64,000 bases of DNA from Girardia tigrina (lineage: Eukaryota). Shown piece by piece: positions 14,641 to 56,525 of the stretch. Numbering within the stretch: position 1 is the first letter of the stretch; each line of letters begins with the position of its first letter. The notes beneath the pieces are model-generated. The model was not told the origin of the DNA. It did not search any database and was given only the letters and a program-made list of their open reading frames with translations. Both the position numbers and the translations under genes were made by a program. Location: positions 1-64,000 of the forward strand of contig MQRK01231528.1 in the NCBI GenBank assembly GCA_001938485.1, in the 5' to 3' direction.

Positions 14641-16532
14641 ATGATTTTTAAAAAATATCAAAAATTTAAAGTTCACCAAAAGGAACCCCGACATCCCCCT
14701 CGTTTTTAAAATTTTTGAATTTTTCAACATTTCGAATAAGTTGTCTACCATTTTTGTCTTCCAACTTGTAGCTTCTTTCGTGAATTCTTTCTATAATTTC
14801 ATAAGGGCCCTCGAATCTATCTTCTCCTTTCGTTCTATTTTCCTTTTGAATCCAGACCTTTTCGCCAACCTTATAAATTCTTCGCGTTACATTTTCCTCT
14901 GGCATGTTTTTTTTTCTTTTAGTCTTATTCTTGTATCCTCTCGGTTTATTTTGCTGTTATCATACCACAATTGTCTATCTATTTTCTTCCCAAATACGAC
15001 TTCTGCTGGACTGCACCCTATCGTCTTTTGTTTCGTTGCATTTATAGCAAATTCCACTTCCGGTAATATGTCTGCCCAACTTGTAGCATTTCTTTCTTTC
15101 AAACTTGCCTGTATGAATTCTCGTATTGTCCGAAACTATCTTTCAATTATCCCATTTGTGTTATGGTTATATGGGCTACAGAAAATCAATTCGATACATT
15201 TTGCTTCCAACATTTCTTTTACTTTTTTCGCTTCAAAACATTCTCTGCAGTCTACGTGGATCTATTTTGGTGCTCCAAATTTTAATATCCATTTCTGTAA
15301 TATCATATATACTATTGTCTCTTCTTCTTGTCTTTTAATTGCTGTCAAGCTCACGTATTTACTGAAATGGTCAATTATTCCCAAGATGTATCTTTCTTTT
15401 CTTACTGTCTCATTCCATGGTCCGCAGATGTCTATATAAACTTTCTCAAATATTTCTGACGTTGTTATTTTTATGTTTTCTTCCTTTGTCTTTGTGGTTA
15501 TTGTCTTTGATCGTTGACACTCCATGCATGATCCTACCACCTCTTTTACCGTTTTCTTTTCTTCTTCCATGTCAAACTTGCCCTTCAGATATTCGTATAC
15601 TTTTTCAGCTCCCGCATGGCACAATAATCTATGTGTTGGTATGATAAGATCGCTTCTTTTTTCTTTCGTTATCCATTCTTTCATACCCGCTCGGGCTTGA
15701 CTCCTCGTAGTCACTGCCAATAATCTCGTCTTGTTTTATTTCCTTTTTTCGCTTCTTCGTGTTCCATTTGGCATTGTATACATATGTCGCAATTCTGTCT
15801 TGATAACATATCAGCGTTGCCGTGCAGCACTTCCTTTCTATATTATATTTCGATATCCAAACTACTTAAGTAATTCATCCATCTTTGGAATTGAGCTGTT
15901 AAGGGTTTCTTTGTATGGAACATGAACGTTATAGATTTATGATCCGTTCTCAATTTAAATCTCTTCCCGTACAGATAATGGTTGAAATGCTGGCAAAAAT
16001 AAAAAATTGCCAAAAGTTCTTTCCTTGTTATACAATAACCTTTTTCATTTGCTGACATTGAATGTGATCCATATGCTATTACTTGCTCTTTCCCCAAATC
16101 ACTTATCTGTGACAGTACCGCCCCTATGCTATCAAAACTGGCATATGTATCTAAAATAAATTGTTTTCCGAAATCTGGGAAGCTCAGTATTGGTGCCGGT
16201 ATCAATGCTTCTTTCATGTCCTTAAACGCTATTTCGCATGCATCCGTCCAGATTAACTTTTCTTTATTTAAACCACACATTCCTTCTAATACTTTGACTT
16301 TCTTTGAATATCCTTTTGATGTGGACAAGGCCACCGATCGATCGCATGCTAAAATGCGACAGCGCAATATTTGCTCGTTGATCAATAAAGTTTACCATAT
16401 TTCGGTGGCGTTCATACTTTCGAAGGGTCGCCACCATACCCGCGCGCACCGTGATCCAGACGATGAAGGATCGGGGATCGGTCACTCGTGACACATCGGA
16501 AGTNNNNNNNNNNNNNNNNNNNNNNNNNNNNN

Positions 16533-16701
16533 ATGTCGACGATTTACAATCGATAAACGCGACAATCGCTCCACGGGAGTTGTTGTTCTGATGGATTCGG
16601 ATTGTTTGGATTTTGCCATGACTTTGAGACGTTTGTCTAATGTCGGTTTCTCCGCAATTTTTCGGTAAATTATTAATCCATAAATAACGAGTGATTCACA
16701 T
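16533..16701 (-). pseudogene. SPEN: 5' end (RRM1) of a SPEN/SHARP-like gene, stop at codon 2
   Basis: Not in the ORF track. Reads M*ITRYLWINNLPKNCGETDIRQTSQSHGKIQTIRIHQNNNSRGAIVAFIDCKSS, versus SPEN MVRETRHLWVGNLPENVREEKIIEHFKRYGRVESVKIL...AAFVDFVDIKSA. Confidence 0.65.
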
Positions 16702-16774
16702 GATTTGGAACAAACAGAAAATTTTGATGTGGATAAAGTCATCAATATCGGTTGCGCCAATCATCGCGTCACTC

Positions 16775-17145
16775 GTTCCCTCCTCGAGCGGCGGCCTCAG
16801 CATCCCCAGCAGCACAGCGTCAGTGGACAGCGCGTCCTCGAGCACCAACCACTGTCCTTGTCGCGGAGCCGTCACGAGGGCGCCCGCGCGCCACTGAGAG
16901 TCTCCGGGCGAGTCCGTGTAGCTGTATCCGCCCAGGATAGCGCGCGCATCCGCGTCGTCGCTCACTTGCACCCGATTGATCGATCGGCCCATCTTATCGG
17001 CCATGAAATCGATCAGTGCAAATTTACCACTGCCTACGGGACCGAACACGAAGATCGATCGATTCGCCGCGATAAATGTCGCGAAATCATCGATCTGCGA
17101 GGCGAATTGACCAGGTTGCACGAATCGGTTCATTCTCGGCCGATC
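16775..17145 (-). pseudogene. MDN1: midasin (MDN1/Rea1) AAA1 domain fragment
   Basis: FVFGPVGSGKFALIDFMA...VQVSDDADARAILGGYSYTDSPGDSQWRAGALVTA..GQWLVLED matches MDN1 'GPIGCGKTSLVE..VQLGDQTDSKMLLGMYRCTDVPGEFVWQPGTL..GHWILLED'. The Walker A motif is damaged. Confidence 0.85.
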
Positions 17146-19239
17146 NNNNNNNNNNNNNNNNNNNNNNNNNNNNNNNNNNNNNNNNNNNNNNNNNNNNNNN
17201 NNNNNNNNNNNNNNNNNNNNNNNNNNNNNNNNNNNNNNNNNNNNNATCGATTATTTATGAAACCACTCAATAAATTGCAATTGTGAAGACAAGCAAGTGA
17301 TTTAGTAAAATTTTTTATTTAGAAATTTAAAAAAGTACATATCATTGTTATTATTAAAACACCAGCAGTTTTTTTTCAGTTTTTATCAAAAATTTATTGA
17401 AATTTTTTTTTAATGCGCATCTGGATTTTTCAGTTTTAAAAATTTCAGGGGTCGCAAATCCAATTAAGAAAGTTTTTTTTCAAAATTAAAATCAAAAAAA
17501 TTAAATTAAATATCACTTAAAAAACTCTTAATTGGTTGCTACTGCTGATGCGATTTAGTGAACACTACACCTTTAATAAACCTTCTATTATAGTTGCAAA
17601 TTCTTAAAAAAACTTCTCAAATTCTTAATACATTTCGGCCTTTTGGAAATTCTCTATCGCTGCAATCTTTTCTGGATCTGTTTGTATCCCTTGGTCATTT
17701 ATTATGTGTCCAAGAAATTTTACTTCCGCTCGTAACATCTTACATTTCGCTGGTTTTATTCTTAGTCCTGTTTGTTGGATCCTCTCAAATACTTCTCTTA
17801 TCACCTTGTAATGTTCTTCCTTTGTACTTGTCGCTATTAGTATGTCATCCAAATAAACTGATGCCCCTTTCTTTATTGGTTGTAACACCTTTGTCATTAG
17901 TTCTTGGAATGTTCCTAGGGCTGCGGCTATGGCAAAAGGCATTCGTTTTGAACAAAACTGTCCTGTCTTGGTGGAGAACGCCGTTTTTTCCTGCGATTCT
18001 TTATCCAATTCTACTTGATAGTATGCATTCCCTAAGTCTATTGTACTAAAATATTGGGTACCGTATCCATCCATCATTTCAGCCATATTCGGCATGGGGG
18101 AATGCTTGACGCTTAGTGATTCTATTTAACTGTCTAAAATCTAGACATAATCTGATTTCGTCCTTGTCCTTTTTCCACACGCATACTATTGGTGTGTTCC
18201 ATTCAGAATTACATGGTTTTATTATTCCGTTTTTCTCCAAACTTTTTATAGCTTCTTCTAGTTTGTCTTCCAGATGTACCGGCTGTCTTCTTGGTTTTAT
18301 GTTTATGGGTCCCCCTGTTGTCTCTTTTCGGTGTTGTAGCAAGTTTGTACGACCTATATCCCAATCGTTTGCCATAAATACTCCTCCATGTTCGTGAATT
18401 ATTTTCTCTAGAGTTTTATCGTTCTTTGTATCTATCACTTTTAATGCCTCTTGAACGCGATTCTCGTTGGTGATTTCTTTTCTAAATTTAGTTTCGATTT
18501 CACATATGTTGATTCTCTCTGTTTCCTGATAATTCCGCTCTTTCCATTATAATTCTATTCCGAACTCTTTCATCAATGGTATTCCTCCGATCATCTCTGG
18601 TCTCAAATTTTTCACTATTACAAATCTAATTTTTTCGGCTTTATATCCAATCTTTACTATCGTTTCTATTTCTCCTCTGACTTCCATTTGTAGTCCATTT
18701 GCTGCGGTAAATGTCTGATTTGTCTGTTCCATCCTTATGTAATTTAAGTTTTTTTAATATTCCTTCCATCATAACATTCAACGCTGCACCCGTATCCAGT
18801 AAACATCCGATTTCTATGTTTTCTATTCTAACTTTTACACTCGGTCGGCCCTGTAATTTATCGTATGTAATCGGAACATTTTCACACTTATTAATAATTA
18901 GCAATTCTCTATCACCAAATGATTTTTTTTATAAATGTCACGACTTTCTGATTTTCTGGTTCCTGATGGGGTTTTGGTTCACTTTGTTCTTTTTGATTAT
19001 TTTTCTTAATTTTAACATTTATATTATTAATATCAACTTTATTATTTATTTTATTTATATAATTTATATTACTACTACTATATATATAATTTATATGATC
19101 TGGTTCATGCGCATGAAAACTTACTCCAGTGCCAAGATCGGTTCCTTGTCGTCTTGGCACGATTCGTTTTTTTCTATATGTTCTTGCTCTCCTCCGTATT
19201 CTTCCTTCTCCATCATCGTGATCTGTCTTCTCTTTCGAA

Positions 19240-24980: not shown

Positions 24981-26134
24981 CCAAATAGTTTCCAAATAAG
25001 TTTTCAGTTTTTATGATTTAAACATTCTTTCGTGACAAAAAAACCCTAAAAGTGTTTGTTGGTCAAGATAAAAATGGGAAGAAAGAGGGTAAAATCTCAT
25101 AGACGATTTATTTTTAGGGCTTTCAAATTTTCAAAAGTTAAACTAAAAAAGATGCATCCAAAGCCTTATAAAAATTACTTACTGTTAAAGTGTAAATCAT
25201 GGACGACAAAACATTAAAATTCTTAAATATGGATTAATCTTCAATATTCAATATTTATGTTCATCTAAAACATCTCTTGCAGGGTTTCATGTTTACAAAA
25301 ATTTTTTCGATAACAATTTTGTTAAAATAAAATAACTAAATATTTTAATTATTCAACAGGAATTTAAAAATTAATTTTATAATAATTAAAAAATTTATTT
25401 TAACAATTAAATAATTTTAATTATTTTCTTTATAAAAATCAAATTATTATTTTTATTATTTATATTTGATGTTATTTTTCATTTGATATAATAAACATGA
25501 TAGATCAAACAATTTTTTAAAAAAAATCTAAATTTAGTTCATTTATTTATAGTCATAAAACTGAAAATAAAAAAATATTAAATTATGAATGAATATTTAA
25601 TAGAAAATATACTTAAATAATAAAATTTTCAAAAAATATTCATTATGAATGTCAATAAGCGACTTCACGCTATTTTCGTGATTATTTCCCTTCAAATGTA
25701 CCGCTTCCCAGGGGATGGTCGAAACTATTATTTTAAATGCTAAATGTATAAATATGACATTTATTTCAGATACGATTTTTTTTTAAATATTTTAATATAA
25801 ATAATGCATTTTATAAATATATCATATTAAATTAATCAAATTTTATTACATTGGTAAAATTTAGTATGAAGAATTTATGATTTCTACACATTTTCACCCG
25901 CAAAGGTAATCACTTAATTTTGGGACCCCTTCCTCAAAAACCGATTACCATTTTTAGTTATTGTTTAATTACCACGTTTTTATTAGCTTGCTTTCTTGCC
26001 TGGAACAAATCTTGCGATTGATTTTTCGACCACTTTCAGTCATCCAATTAAGCTGAAATTTTTTATACAGGCTTGCTTCCGATGACAATACAATATTTTA
26101 AAACATTTACGGCTCTACATAAACCGCATATGCT

Positions 26135-26940
26135 ATAATTTAACTTTATGAAAAAAATCAATAATATTAATTAATACGTACAAAAAAATTATTTTGAAAT
26201 AAAACTTGCTTTTATTAAAATAAAACTTTGTTATTTTGGTTTTATTATATTTCTGTTATTCGAAATCAATCGAAAGATTTGAATTCCTAAATGATAACTA
26301 AAAATAGTAAAATAATATTATTAATAAAAAAATTTTTTTATAAAAACAACCACGTTTTTCAAGCATTACCAATGCACTAAAAAGAGGAAAATAATTTTTT
26401 TCTAGACATGTGCAAAATTTTATACCTAACTAAAAACGTGGGGCATAGAAATGATCGATTGTTACTAAAAAGCAGTAAAGAGGAAATAGCAGTTACTAAT
26501 AGCAGTAATTGAGAAATCCGCCCCACGTTTTTGGTTAGGTATAAAATTTCNNNNNNNNNNNNNNNNNNNNNNNNNNNNNNNNNNNNNNNNNNNNNNNNNN
26601 ATGCTTGAAAAACGTGGTTGTTTTTATAAAAAAATTTTTTTATTAATAATATTATTTTACTATTTTTAGTTATCATTTAGGAATTCAAATCTTTCGATTG
26701 ATTTCGAATAACAGAAATATAATAAAACCAAAATAACAAAGTTTTATTTTAATAAAAGCAAGTTTTATTTCAAAATAATTTTTTTGTACGTATTAATTAA
26801 TATTATTGATTTTTTTCATAAAGTTAAATTATAACATAAAATTATAATTATAAAATTATTTTCCTCTTTTTAGTGCATTGGTAATGCTTGAAAAACGTGG
26901 TTGTTTTTATAAAAAATTTTTTTTATTAATAATATTATTT
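26135..26940. repeat. long foldback inverted repeat (MITE/foldback-like) centred near 26480
   Basis: 26135-26366 is the near-perfect reverse complement of 26601-26832. Inner arms AAATTTTATACCTAACTAAAAACGTGGGGC and GCCCCACGTTTTTGGTTAGGTATAAAATTT. An extra partial arm lies at 26852-26940. Confidence 0.85.
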
Positions 26941-45358: not shown

Positions 45359-45883
45359 TCACGTTTTTATTACTAATGAATGTAAAGGGAGAAAGTGTTT
45401 GAATTTTATAAAATTATATACTATCAACCAATGGAACCATCAATAAAGTTTACAGATAAATGCTATTATATTACCCAAAAGACACACGATCATTCCTATT
45501 ACAAACAGAAAACTAGAAGAAAATAAATTTCCTGCTTCTTGGCACTGAAACATACAATCTTTTAGGAATTTTTCCTAAATATGTTTGGTTGGATCAAAAT
45601 AGGAAGAGAACGAACATACAATAAAATCGAGTATGCCACAAACATACTTCTTATATCCTGTCGATTTATCTCGGTAGAATTTCCCTTCAAACTACATCAA
45701 TTTTAATTAATAGTATTTTATTTTATTTTTTTTGAAGAAATAAACAGTAAAAATCCTTCAAAAACCAAACCTATCTCTCAGGCATCCCAAACGATGTTCT
45801 TCAGATTTATCAATTGGGAAAATGGATTCCAAATTTGACAGAATTTCGTGTGTTTTAGTTTGTCCGCTGAAAAATGTTCGACG

Positions 45884-48250
45884 ATGCGTTTGGCTCATTA
45901 TAGCCTGTGTTTGTTTTTGCTTTTACATTTGATTTTTCAAGACGTTCAAGCAATCAAAGGTTGCGTGGTGACGTTAATCAACTCGAGCAGCTCGAAACGA
46001 CGAATACTTTGCGGCGACCCCAACTCGACAATAACTCGAATTCCAGACAAACTACCCGAAACGACAGCGATGTTGATCATTACAAATCAGAATATCATTT
46101 CAATAAAAGAGAACGATTTGGAATCCGTTTCCGAATTGTCGACCCTTTCATTAACGTTTTCCAATCTCGAAACGATTGATAAAAATGCTTTCAAACATCT
46201 TTCACAATTGACGATTTTAGATTTAAGTGGAAATAAATTGACGATTTCCGAAACGTCTTTTCCCAGTGATTTGTTGCTTAATCTTAGCAACTTACAACAT
46301 TTAAAATTGACGAATAATCCTCTGAAATTGATTCCGGATTTTTTTTTCAAACCTCTTTCTAATCTTCGGAAATTATTCATCAATGATTGTGGTGGTTCCA
46401 GTTCTTTGATTGTTTCCAAACAAGCATTTAAAGGTTTAAGTTTGATTGAAGAGATAGATATGAGAAAGAGTGGACTTGAAAAGTTACACGAGTCTATGGA
46501 AACCGATTTTCGGGATATGAAAAACTTACGTTCGTTGTTTTTGGCCGAAAATCCGTGGATTTGCGATTGTCATCTTCGATGGCTCTATATGTACCTAACT
46601 CAATTACTACAGGATAGCATTACTCTTCAAATTGAAAATATCGGTCCTCAATGTAAAAAACCTCCTCGTTTGAAAGGCAGCCGATTTCCGGCTATAGACG
46701 AAAGAAGCAGTCTGAAGTTTGTGGATTTTGTTTGTCAACCAAAATGTTCACGTTTATCACCAGAAATTATCGAATTGAAATCTGGCGGCAGTTTTAATCT
46801 CACTTGTCAATGTTTTTCCGACCCTATCAAAACGTTAGTTTGGACGAAAAACGGTCATCAGGTGGAAGAAAACCCTAATAAATTTCGTATATATCATTCG
46901 GGAAATCGACATTTCCAATCGACTCTTCAAGTACGAATGTTGGAATCCATCGATAGCGGAGATTGGAGTTGTAAACTCGAGGATATTGTGAAGAACTTTA
47001 CGGTGAAAGTTAATTCAAATACTTTATTCCCCATAGCAGCATCATTAAATGTTTATATATTCGTTGGGTTAGGAAGCTCACTGTTACTCATTTCTCTTAT
47101 TATTGTAATGATGGTCATGTTTTGTAAACGAGATTCTTTATGTCAGTATCGAAGTCAAAACCCGATGGTCATTTGTGGATATGAAACTCAATTACGAAAA
47201 CCGTCGGGTTATGATGGCGATATTCAATTTACGTATAATCAACAAGACGGTCGATTTCATAGCAGTTTTTATGAAAATTCCATTCCTGTAAATTCTAATT
47301 TCAATTTGTATCAAAGAACCAACCCATACCAAAACGATACCCTTTCCGAGAAGAATAGACTCAGTGATCTTGATCAGAAATCCCAGTTATTAATCAACAC
47401 CAAAACTCCAAGTAATGATAAAATGTTGAATATTTACTGTGGATGTCACAATTATAGTATTTTCAATTCTGATGATGAACCAAACCCTGACCTAATGACC
47501 GATTCTTTTACTTGTAACTCAAAAACCTTGAAACCAAGTTTAGACCATAAAAGACCAATCAGTACTTTGGATTCGAAATTCGAAAGAAATTTTCAAACAT
47601 TGCCAATGAAAAACTCAACGGAAATCGAAAAATTAATACCGAAAATCCGTCAATGTCCATTCCATGGAAGCTCAGCAACGTTAACTCGAGTCCCTGGTGA
47701 TAAACCGTGTCCCGTTCATGGATCGACGGCAACTCTACCAAGTCGACTCTCGTCGAAAAAGATCGAGCATCGATTAGGTTGCCCGAAACATGATAAAGAT
47801 AATATCAGTGTGAAAAGTTTAAAAATGGAAAGCACAAATCATCACAAAATTCAAGCTCATCGATCCAAATCTGTAAATAAAATCTCAACAAATCCCGAAG
47901 CAATGGAAATCGTAACTCCGACCGGATATCGACCGTGTCCACTTCACGGGGATATTTTGGCAGCGATTACGGAAAATTTAATCGAGCCTCTACCAAATAG
48001 TCATAAAATTCATCGGAAAGACATCCTTTCTAAAAAGTCTCATTCCAAAAACATTTACGAATCGAATTTGAAAATTCCACCGACAGATTGTGATAAAATG
48101 AACAGAAAACCGGTCGAGTCCATCAAAACTCGTTCCGAGTATTTTCCAGTGACATCAGCGAACATCTCACATAATCTCACGTCTCCAGTCCAGTCGAGTC
48201 TGTCCAGTTCCCCATTGTTAACGTCTGATGTCCATGGTACTCTTGTATAA
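45884..48250 (+). CDS. Kekkon-like LRR and Ig-domain type I transmembrane protein (788 aa from ATG 45884), single coding exon
   Basis: Signal peptide MRLAHYSLCLFLLLHLIFQDVQA, LRRNT, about 7 LRRs, LRRCT (NPWICDCHLRW), one Ig domain and a TM segment (VYIFVGLGSSLLLISLIIVMMVMFC). The cytoplasmic NPDL motif and C-terminal GTLV resemble Kekkon PDL and GTEV. A splice acceptor TTTTAG at 45853-45858 precedes the ATG. Confidence 0.9.
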   Translation: MRLAHYSLCLFLLLHLIFQDVQAIKGCVVTLINSSSSKRRILCGDPNSTITRIPDKLPETTAMLIITNQNIISIKENDLESVSELSTLSLTFSNLETIDKNAFKHLSQLTILDLSGNKLTISETSFPSDLLLNLSNLQHLKLTNNPLKLIPDFFFKPLSNLRKLFINDCGGSSSLIVSKQAFKGLSLIEEIDMRKSGLEKLHESMETDFRDMKNLRSLFLAENPWICDCHLRWLYMYLTQLLQDSITLQIENIGPQCKKPPRLKGSRFPAIDERSSLKFVDFVCQPKCSRLSPEIIELKSGGSFNLTCQCFSDPIKTLVWTKNGHQVEENPNKFRIYHSGNRHFQSTLQVRMLESIDSGDWSCKLEDIVKNFTVKVNSNTLFPIAASLNVYIFVGLGSSLLLISLIIVMMVMFCKRDSLCQYRSQNPMVICGYETQLRKPSGYDGDIQFTYNQQDGRFHSSFYENSIPVNSNFNLYQRTNPYQNDTLSEKNRLSDLDQKSQLLINTKTPSNDKMLNIYCGCHNYSIFNSDDEPNPDLMTDSFTCNSKTLKPSLDHKRPISTLDSKFERNFQTLPMKNSTEIEKLIPKIRQCPFHGSSATLTRVPGDKPCPVHGSTATLPSRLSSKKIEHRLGCPKHDKDNISVKSLKMESTNHHKIQAHRSKSVNKISTNPEAMEIVTPTGYRPCPLHGDILAAITENLIEPLPNSHKIHRKDILSKKSHSKNIYESNLKIPPTDCDKMNRKPVESIKTRSEYFPVTSANISHNLTSPVQSSLSSSPLLTSDVHGTLV

Positions 48251-55009: not shown

Positions 55010-56525
55010 CTACTGGACAAAATATTTGCAATTACATTTTGGTGCATTTTTAAAAGTTTTAGGTAAACTAATTCTTTTTTAAACTAAAGTCAACCTATTG
55101 ATGTATTATAATATATATTGACACATTTGTTTGTTTTAATAGTTCAATAAATAATAATGAATTTGCGTATTTTTGTAATGTTTTTTTGGCCACATTTTTG
55201 CATTACTATATTTTAATGTTTTGTAATTAATTATTTAATGTTATTTTGATAGATATATTATTTTTAGATATTTAGAATGACGCTAAGCATGGAAAAAATT
55301 GATATAATTAAAAATTATTTATTGAAAGGAACCTCCAAAAAGGTCATAGCTGAGACCCTAAATGTTAGCCTGAGGACGATTTATAGTGTCGCAAGTGGTG
55401 CAAGAGGTTTTAATCCTCCAAGGAATTCAACCTCGAAGAAATATAAAATAAACAATGAAATTAAAAAAGCTAGAGTGTCTTTAGAAAAGGGTCATAAAAA
55501 AGTGACATCAGTGGCAATTGGCAATATATTGTCCAACAATGTGTCCACCCGCATAATACGAAGGCGTATGTGTTCAATGGAATTGAGTTATCGTAGGAGA
55601 TGTCAAAGGATACAATTGTCAGACAATCAGAAGGCCAAAAGAGTAGAAATAGTGCAGTCATAGATTATTGAAAATGTCGATTTTGACAAAGTTGTTTTTT
55701 CTGATGAGTGCCGCTTTTCTCTCGATGGCAACGATAACTTTATGTCATGGAGCAAAGATAATAACACACAGCTTGCAAGACGACCGTTTGGTGGTGGCTC
55801 GATAATGATTTGGGGTTGCATTAGCCGTGATGGACCATTGCTTGTTAGAAGAGTTGAAGGTACCATTAATTCTAATTCCTATTGTGATATGTTGAAGGAC
55901 GACATATTTCCGTTGCTAAAGATTGAAATAGATTAATTTTTATTCCAACAAGACAACGCGCGTGCGCACACAAGCAAGAAAACCATTGAGATGCTTACTG
56001 CTGAAAAAGTAGACATATTACCCTGGCCAGCTCATAGCCCTGACTTATCTCCTATAGAGAAANNNNNNNNNNNNNNNNNNNNNNGATTATATAATGGTCC
56101 ACAATTTGATGGCAAAGAGTCACTATGGTCTGGAATTTGTCATGAAGTGGATAAAATCAATGATGAAGAGTTTGGTATTTTATCAAACTTATATAGACAT
56201 TTTAAACAAAAGGTGTGTCTATTATTAAAGAATGATGGTGCATTATTGCGATAATAAATGTTACTTAGTTTTATTTTTATTACTAATAAAAATATTAAAT
56301 GAGTGCAAAAATGTGGCCAAAAAAACATTACAAAAATACACAAATTCATTATTATCTAATAAACTATTAAAACAAACAAATGTGTCAATGTATATTATAA
56401 TACATCAATAGGTTGACTTTAGTTTAAAAAAGAACTAATTTACCTAAAACTTTTAAAAACTTTTAAATTTACCTAAAACTTTTAAAACTGCACGAAAATG
56501 TAATTGCAAATATTTTATCCAGTAG
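55010..56525 (+). mobile_element. full-length Tc1 element with ~200-bp TIRs and TA TSD; transposase 55277-56254 has two in-frame stops
   Basis: TA|CTACTGGACAAAATATTTGCAATTAC ... GTAATTGCAAATATTTTATCCAGTAG|TA. Motifs FSDECRF, IMIWG, FQQDNARAHT and HSPDLSPIE are all in one frame. Confidence 0.95.

What the first reader, a model, noticed from the sequence alone, without database searches (positions are those of the whole stretch)
16317..16746. The element's 3' terminus occurs twice, marking the MDN1|SPEN junction
Seen: TGATGTGGACAAGGCCACCGAT (16317-16338, the true end) recurs as TGATGTGGATAAAGTCATCAAT (16725-16746). The match is 17/22 with all differences being transitions, and the copy sits between the midasin piece and the SPEN start codon. 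Inference: an older unit ending at 16725 inserted just upstream of a SPEN ATG and was later remobilised with flanking DNA using a second end, or one copy nested in another. Either would explain stepwise capture and the bias towards 5' gene ends.
Basis: partly seen in the sequence, partly recalled or inferred. Interest (0 to 1): 0.7.

Follow-up and report, generated by a model that had tools for sequence, protein, structure and literature searches.

The report
Retrotransposon LTR stacking host mRNA starts
The doubled end lies inside a leftover terminal repeat of a Gypsy-type jumping gene, where two sister repeats were joined, likely by a copying slip; this family's repeats carry front pieces of host messenger RNAs in the same reading frame as the element's coat-protein gene, which would let it borrow host start signals.

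Summary
Observation confirmed (17/22, all transitions). 16317-17569 (minus) is a solo LTR of a Ty3/Gypsy family, with a 5-bp target duplication. Sister LTRs abut integrase plus polypurine tract, or a primer site plus gag. Both motifs are working LTR ends: the inner one closes an independent midasin-carrying subfamily, and neither is native SPEN or (likely) native midasin. The proposed route, insertion before the SPEN ATG then remobilisation, is not supported. The native SPEN gene has no insertion, the SPEN piece lacks its intron, and the inner end is followed by the element's own LTR-primer spacer instead of target DNA. A reverse-transcriptase switch between sister subfamilies fits best; the junction occurs in 6 copies. 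The larger finding: this family (671 exact left ends) stacks front pieces of unrelated host genes inside its LTR, in frame at 7 of 7 junction types and, in 12 of 13 primer-adjacent LTRs, in frame with the gag start. Transcript ends and translation are unmeasured, and point-mutation support is modest. Other notes of this scan describe similar capture on other DNA of this genome.

The parts
16317..17569 (-). Solo LTR (1253 nt, TG...CA) of a gene-capturing Ty3/Gypsy family; 'double' subfamily = whole midasin LTR plus the 3' part of a SPEN LTR
17570..17574 (-). 5-bp target site duplication, left copy
16312..16316 (-). 5-bp target site duplication, right copy
17300..17569 (-). AT-rich 5' part of the LTR (likely U3); the first ~160 nt are shared by all cargo subfamilies seen; its first 24 nt occur exactly 671 times
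16754..17299 (-). Captured midasin (MDN1) piece: leader, ATG (in the N gap, seen in sister copies) and first AAA domain
16725..16753 (-). Inner LTR 3' end: true end of the midasin-only subfamily; a related end closes LTRs without midasin (L139, L166)
16721..16724 (-). Four bases equal to what follows a 5' LTR of the family (3-nt spacer plus first base of the primer site); absent at this place from the SPEN leader
16534..16720 (-). Captured spliced SPEN mRNA piece: last 19 nt of leader, ATG at 16701-16699, RRM1; exon-exon junction at 16622/16621; this copy has a stop at codon 2
16339..16533 (-). Shared LTR tail of unidentified origin, open in the same frame, joined to SPEN by a deletion at a 9-nt repeat relative to the longer LTR L115
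16317..16338 (-). Outer LTR 3' end (SPEN-type); in 5' LTRs followed by spacer, primer site and gag
15262..18125 (-). Host of the insertion: decayed pol of an unrelated Gypsy element (RT 17625-18125, RNase H 15843-16316, integrase 15262-15735), RT 35% identical to the family's RT

Best explanation
The stretch 16317-17569 is a solo LTR of a Ty3/Gypsy retrotransposon, and its end occurs twice because a complete midasin-carrying LTR was joined to the back half of a SPEN-carrying sister LTR, likely by a reverse-transcriptase template switch between co-packaged RNAs or cDNAs. Shown: both ends work as LTR ends; the SPEN piece comes from spliced mRNA; the junction carries the element's LTR-primer spacer; it arose once and was copied to 6 places, one of them as a 3' LTR behind integrase. 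Inferred general mechanism: first-strand synthesis starts at the primer site, copies the LTR end, jumps to a co-packaged host mRNA, runs to that mRNA's 5' end and then transfers back to the element. Each new host 5' end thus lands upstream of older, 5'-truncated cargo and is copied into both LTRs. Because the 5' LTR cargo lies upstream of gag, a captured ATG out of frame would block Gag, so in-frame captures likely are the ones that spread.
For: LTR identity: integrase then purine tract directly before the left end in L004, L026, L029 (rve E 3.8e-12); PR-RT-RH-IN order in L187 (best RT hit Ty3); primer-site motif directly after the right end in 10 places against 0 control, followed by gag (DUF7041 weak, E 3.8e-4); 39 of 132 left ends closed by a 5-bp duplication (one insertion counted twice). 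RNA source: a 127-nt GT-AG intron of native SPEN (L116) is precisely missing (gene identity). Junction: element spacer rather than SPEN leader; 6 copies, 0 control. Frame: host-domain anchors in the terminal frame in 10/14 midasin, 20/22 SPEN, 5/5 SDR, 1/1 UBE2G-like and 1/1 L119-cargo closed LTRs; 11 of 11 CCACATCA-ended 5' LTRs read in frame into the primer-site ATG; L217, with another end and a 2-nt spacer, keeps the frame as predicted beforehand. Frame-breaking changes are rarer among shared variants (5 vs 165 substitutions) than private ones (38 vs 359), p=0.005, while syn/nonsyn does not differ, p=0.42.
Against: No complete element with two matching LTRs was recovered from this fragmented assembly. 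The spacer match is only 3-4 nt and the double junction shows no microhomology, so end-joining of cDNAs fits equally. L200, a family 5' LTR with a 1-nt spacer, is out of frame. The 11 in-frame 5' LTRs represent only two end types. Stop-gains in the gag frame (2 shared, 17 private) against the other five frames (46, 120) are not significantly different, p=0.16. Recurrent substitutions and haplotype duplicates can inflate the shared class. Start site, poly(A) site and translation are unmeasured. Splicing was tested for SPEN only, and a 5'-end origin of the midasin piece is not shown (yeast midasin has about 295 residues before this domain).
Confidence: 0.8

Rival explanations
1. Integration route (closest to the first reader): a midasin-LTR element integrated into a SPEN-type 5' LTR, or before the SPEN gene, and transcription from the inserted LTR read through to the outer end and primer site.
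For: The inner end stops exactly at its terminal CA, as integration would leave it; the family's LTRs do land in other retroelements (window).
Against: After integration the next bases must be target sequence, but only 1 of the 4 matches the SPEN leader while 4 of 4 match the element's spacer. No nested left end, no insertion at native SPEN, and the cargo is spliced.
Confidence: 0.08
2. DNA end-joining: the unprocessed right end of a finished midasin-type cDNA was ligated to a broken SPEN-type cDNA before integration, with no template switch.
For: The four extra bases are what an unprocessed cDNA end would carry (recalled from retroviral biochemistry, not from a call); the joint has no microhomology.
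Against: It needs a further replication round to place the joint in a 3' LTR (L004), and it does not account for the spliced host pieces, which need an RNA template.
Confidence: 0.1
3. Capture is as described but the open frame is incidental: captures persist for another reason (promoter activity, or shielding from small-RNA silencing), or for none.
For: No amino-acid constraint; stop-only control not significant; L200 out of frame. Host fragments in Drosophila telomeric elements are tied to piRNA conflict (PMC7785250 abstract; PMC13534243 passages).
Against: 7 of 7 junction types in frame (about 5e-4 if each had a 1-in-3 chance, set chosen after inspection); the frame is kept across two spacer lengths.
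Confidence: 0.3
4. Pack-type DNA transposon with TG...CA ends that picked up genomic DNA.
For: Most copies are short units with a 5-bp duplication and no enzyme gene.
Against: Adjacent integrase, purine tract, primer site and gag; intronless cargo; only a 7-bp imperfect terminal inverted repeat.
Confidence: 0.02

Closest known systems
LTR-mediated retrocopies in animals (Tan et al. 2016, PMC5131818; abstract and sections 5 and 8 read)
   Same: Partial, intronless, mostly sense host mRNA pieces joined to LTR elements by template switches, sometimes from two genes, then re-amplified.
   Different: There the retrocopy replaces part of the internal ORFs in all Drosophila cases. Here the pieces sit inside the LTR, spread mainly as solo LTRs, are stacked serially, leave gag-pol in place and are in frame with gag.
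Cassandra, Helenus and Ajax TRIMs (PMC10886601 passages read; 10.1101/2023.07.14.548913 search listing only)
   Same: Host-gene sequence carried inside the LTR and thought to supply an expression signal.
   Different: Those carry one fixed small-RNA promoter (5S or tRNA) in non-autonomous elements; here many protein-coding mRNA fronts turn over in a family with gag-pol.
BARE-2 and Veju chimeras from abnormal template switching (PMC13317346, passages read)
   Same: A template switch between co-packaged RNAs put another element's sequence into an LTR; the closest match for the doubled end itself.
   Different: Those are element-element swaps or unknown DNA, without stacked host mRNA starts or a retained inner LTR end, as described in the passages read.
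TART-A/nxf2 and related Drosophila telomeric captures (PMC7785250 abstract; PMC13534243 passages)
   Same: Host gene fragments fixed in a retroelement lineage and turned over.
   Different: Non-LTR elements that take piRNA-pathway genes; here the cargo is unrelated housekeeping genes and biased to front ends.
Yeast Ty1 (recalled; lead from note e1-9515205)
   Same: The gag frame starts inside the LTR and reads across the primer site.
   Different: Ty1 uses its own fixed start; here the upstream frame is host-derived and exchangeable.

Membership tests
Ty3/Gypsy LTR retrotransposon | pol order PR-RT-RH-IN next to the LTR | tested here: met
   L187; best RT hit Ty3, E 7e-42; rve
Ty3/Gypsy LTR retrotransposon | TG...CA termini with 4-6 bp target duplication on solo LTRs | tested here: met
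   window; 39 of 132 left ends closed by a 5-bp duplication
Ty3/Gypsy LTR retrotransposon | Primer-binding site after the 5' LTR and purine tract before the 3' LTR | tested here: met
   (7 and 6 of 132 left ends)
Ty3/Gypsy LTR retrotransposon | Identity of the primer tRNA | tested here: inconclusive
   tRNA-Leu is recalled only; no tRNA gene in the 13 loci scanned
Ty3/Gypsy LTR retrotransposon | One complete element with two matching LTRs | tested here: inconclusive
   0 of 5 long stretches held both LTRs
LTR-mediated retrocopy (Tan et al. 2016) | Introns of the parent gene removed | tested here: met
   SPEN, one intron; other cargo not tested
LTR-mediated retrocopy (Tan et al. 2016) | Microsimilarity at switch points | tested here: inconclusive
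   about 5 nt at midasin-to-end, 9 nt at the SPEN-to-tail deletion, none at the double junction
LTR-mediated retrocopy (Tan et al. 2016) | Host piece replaces internal ORFs between two LTRs | tested here: not met
   cargo lies within the LTR; gag and pol lie outside it
CsRn1 clade (PMC2582038, passages read) | tRNA-Trp primer site and 4-bp target duplication | tested here: not met
   different primer-site sequence and 5-bp duplications
Pack-type DNA transposon | Terminal inverted repeats around genomic cargo, no retroelement signals | tested here: not met

The most novel reading that the evidence does not exclude
A Gypsy family that 'snatches starts': it keeps replacing the front of its own transcript with 5' ends of host mRNAs, using them as exchangeable leader and start-codon cassettes translated as N-terminal extensions of Gag. 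Selection acts on the reading frame only, and hundreds of solo LTRs spread these host-gene starts through the genome.
Probability: 0.45. Interest if true: 0.85.

Novelty: new variant of a known kind. Interest (0 to 1): 0.68.

Why it matters
The doubled end is a rare preserved intermediate that shows how this LTR family recombines. The family as a whole explains, by one mechanism, scattered 5' fragments of unrelated genes in this genome. It gives hundreds of dated natural products of mRNA capture by template switching, and predicts Gag proteins with host-derived N-termini. It also makes testable whether host 5' ends serve a transposon as start signals or as cover against small-RNA silencing. 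For annotation and RNA-seq, these LTRs mimic real genes (SPEN, midasin, an SDR, a ubiquitin-conjugating enzyme).

Tried and rejected
Protein search with the midasin piece found nothing (only proteins up to 2000 residues were candidates). The midasin lid-domain contigs did not hold the captured exon, and walking upstream hit a repeat. One motif search for the native midasin exon gave 0 hits; a second found it at a contig end. Its 90 residues had no PDB hit, so 'native midasin' rests on shared letters with a 13,725-nt contig of run X1, a continuing open frame and a GT intron start. An exact search for midasin-ended 5' LTRs gave 0; L109, with a variant primer site, came. Of 30 loci from the CAACA-primer pattern only 2 belong to this family. 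The first indel comparison had mixed groups and was dropped; L154's terminal phase was set by eye and is not counted. SPEN-only LTRs L054, L058 and L060 were first taken as the ancestor, then rejected: they keep a midasin-leader remnant and are deletion products of the double LTR. Sequencing runs are contigs only: they show presence, not strand, level or transcript ends; X1 is only guessed to be RNA. A midasin-like region reported in a planarian Burro-like polyprotein (PMC6431247, passages read) was not compared. Searches for cargo inside LTRs listed no paper with this arrangement; the library lacks most subscription journals and no repeat database was searched. No supplements were read.

Full report
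OBSERVATION. The degenerate profile has 232 exact hits in the 1.43-Gb assembly and the reversed control has none. On the minus strand the unit 17569-16317 begins TG, ends CA, is flanked by a 5-bp duplication, and interrupts the RT-RNase H region of an unrelated, decayed Gypsy element (RT 35% identical).

IT IS AN LTR. Three sister copies have an integrase frame and a purine tract directly before the left end (rve E 3.8e-12). One of them lies behind protease, RT, RNase H and integrase in that order (best structural-database hit Ty3 RT). The right end is followed by a 3-nt spacer and a primer-site motif in 10 places against 0 control, then by a long frame that runs into Gag (DUF7041 weak). Of 132 distinct left ends in hand, 39 close with a 5-bp duplication (one insertion counted twice), 7 with a primer site, and 6 follow a purine tract. 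The rest could not be closed; many run off short contigs. The first 24 nt occur exactly 671 times. No complete two-LTR element was recovered (0 of 5 long stretches).

BOTH ENDS WORK. Most matches to the midasin part stop exactly at 16725. Of 33 distinct midasin-type ends, 5 are internal and 28 terminal. Of the 15 terminal ones with both ends in view, 10 have an exact duplication and 2 a one-mismatch duplication; one is a 3' LTR (L026), one a 5' LTR (L109) and one is unexplained (L010). SPEN-ended LTRs form a separate set, with a native SPEN leader or with other cargo in front. The double junction exists in 6 copies, 0 control, with the same sequence at the joint. Two have both ends and a duplication, and one is a 3' LTR behind integrase, so the double form arose once and replicated. 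L054, L058 and L060 are its deletion products.

NEITHER END IS NATIVE. A loose end in run X1 led to the native SPEN gene (SHARP RRMs E 4e-32). A 127-nt GT-AG intron is precisely absent from the LTR copy, so the piece came from spliced mRNA. The native region holds no element left end and no match above 16/22. The likely native midasin exon follows the LTR to about 16754 and then continues as its own frame. A 13,725-nt contig in X1 leaves the LTR at 16765. A related end closes LTRs without midasin. The exon's identity rests on these links, since its 90 residues had no PDB hit.

HOW THE JOINT FORMED. Native SPEN and SPEN-LTRs share one sequence upstream of 16720; the double LTR has four other bases there, identical to what follows 5' LTRs of both subfamilies. 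Integration would remove such bases and leave target sequence (established integrase chemistry), and the N gap holds no nested left end. The joint therefore formed on an RNA or unprocessed cDNA. A template switch between co-packaged sister elements is the simplest reading; end-joining of cDNAs cannot be excluded. The match is short and there is no microhomology.

THE WIDER SYSTEM. A sample taken by the left end shows many cargo types behind one conserved left end (part of the output was cut). Pfam finds adh_short, UQ_con, BTB, AAA_5 and RRM_1 in 6 of 10 frames tested; the other four had only a marginal hit or none. The UQ_con LTR is itself a multi-copy subfamily. Newer pieces sit upstream with their own ATG and older ones are cut at the 5' side, as expected if first-strand synthesis jumps to a host mRNA and runs to its 5' end (inferred). 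In 45 closed LTRs, host anchors share the terminal frame in 10/14 midasin, 20/22 SPEN, 5/5 SDR, 1/1 UQ_con and 1/1 L119-type cases. Indels in these regions are nearly all single-copy. Seven junction types are all in frame: midasin-end, end-SPEN, SPEN-tail long and short, SDR-SPEN, UQ_con-tail and L119-tail. The double joint reads open in 5 of 6 copies; the window copy has a stop at SPEN codon 2. All 11 CCACATCA-ended 5' LTRs read into the primer-site ATG frame (two end types; two of them break shortly downstream). For CAACA ends a 2-nt spacer was predicted: L217 fits and L200 does not. Shared variants are poorer in frameshifts and stops than private ones (5 vs 165, 38 vs 359; p=0.005; p=0.02 at three or more copies), with no syn/nonsyn difference. 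The stop-only test against the other five frames is not significant (p=0.16). Frame selection is therefore likely, not proven.

COMPARISON AND NOVELTY. It works like LTR-mediated retroposition (PMC5131818, abstract and sections 5 and 8), but fails that paper's pattern of internal replacement. It resembles Cassandra, Helenus and Ajax in carrying host sequence in the LTR (PMC10886601, passages) and BARE-2 in an LTR chimera by template switching (PMC13317346, passages). Searches listed no paper on serial, in-frame mRNA-front capture inside LTRs, within a library that lacks most subscription journals. Earlier notes of this scan describe 5'-fragment capture and open frames on other DNA of this genome. 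A look-up by sequence found no look-alike, and I did not test whether those are this family. PMC5131818 and the Ty1 comparison were leads from such notes.

VERDICT. Observation confirmed; interpretation partly supported; new variant of a known kind; interest 0.68. Most novel reading: exchangeable host start cassettes for Gag, probability 0.45.

Noticed in passing
L051 (G000:C214642:147-1203): One LTR with a purine tract on its left and a primer site on its right: two elements in tandem sharing an LTR.
   Followed up: partly
window 16438/16447 joined to 16883: Contigs in all four runs laid join midasin to the SPEN-type tail, skipping 444 nt, a multiple of three: a further subfamily, not fetched from the assembly.
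   Followed up: no
window ~16755-16765 vs L242: Just before the switch point the LTR copy has one base more than the likely native midasin exon; this sets the midasin frame in phase with the LTR end and gag.
   Followed up: partly
L081, L115, L135, L139, L154: The family uses at least five different 3' ends behind one conserved left end.
   Followed up: partly
L188:8097-9404 (minus): About 170 open codons lie between the primer site and the recognisable Gag, including an AT-rich stretch with splice-like signals.
   Followed up: no
window 45839-48250 (+): Single 803-codon open frame that reads like a signal peptide, leucine-rich repeats, Ig domain and membrane helix (by eye).
   Followed up: no
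window 26129-26838: Perfect 238-nt inverted repeat with 234 nt between the arms.
   Followed up: no
window 55047-56459: 184-nt inverted repeats around Tc1/mariner-like frames.
   Followed up: no
L188:1037-2257 (minus): Long frame rich in FG/FS repeats, like a nucleoporin (by eye).
   Followed up: no
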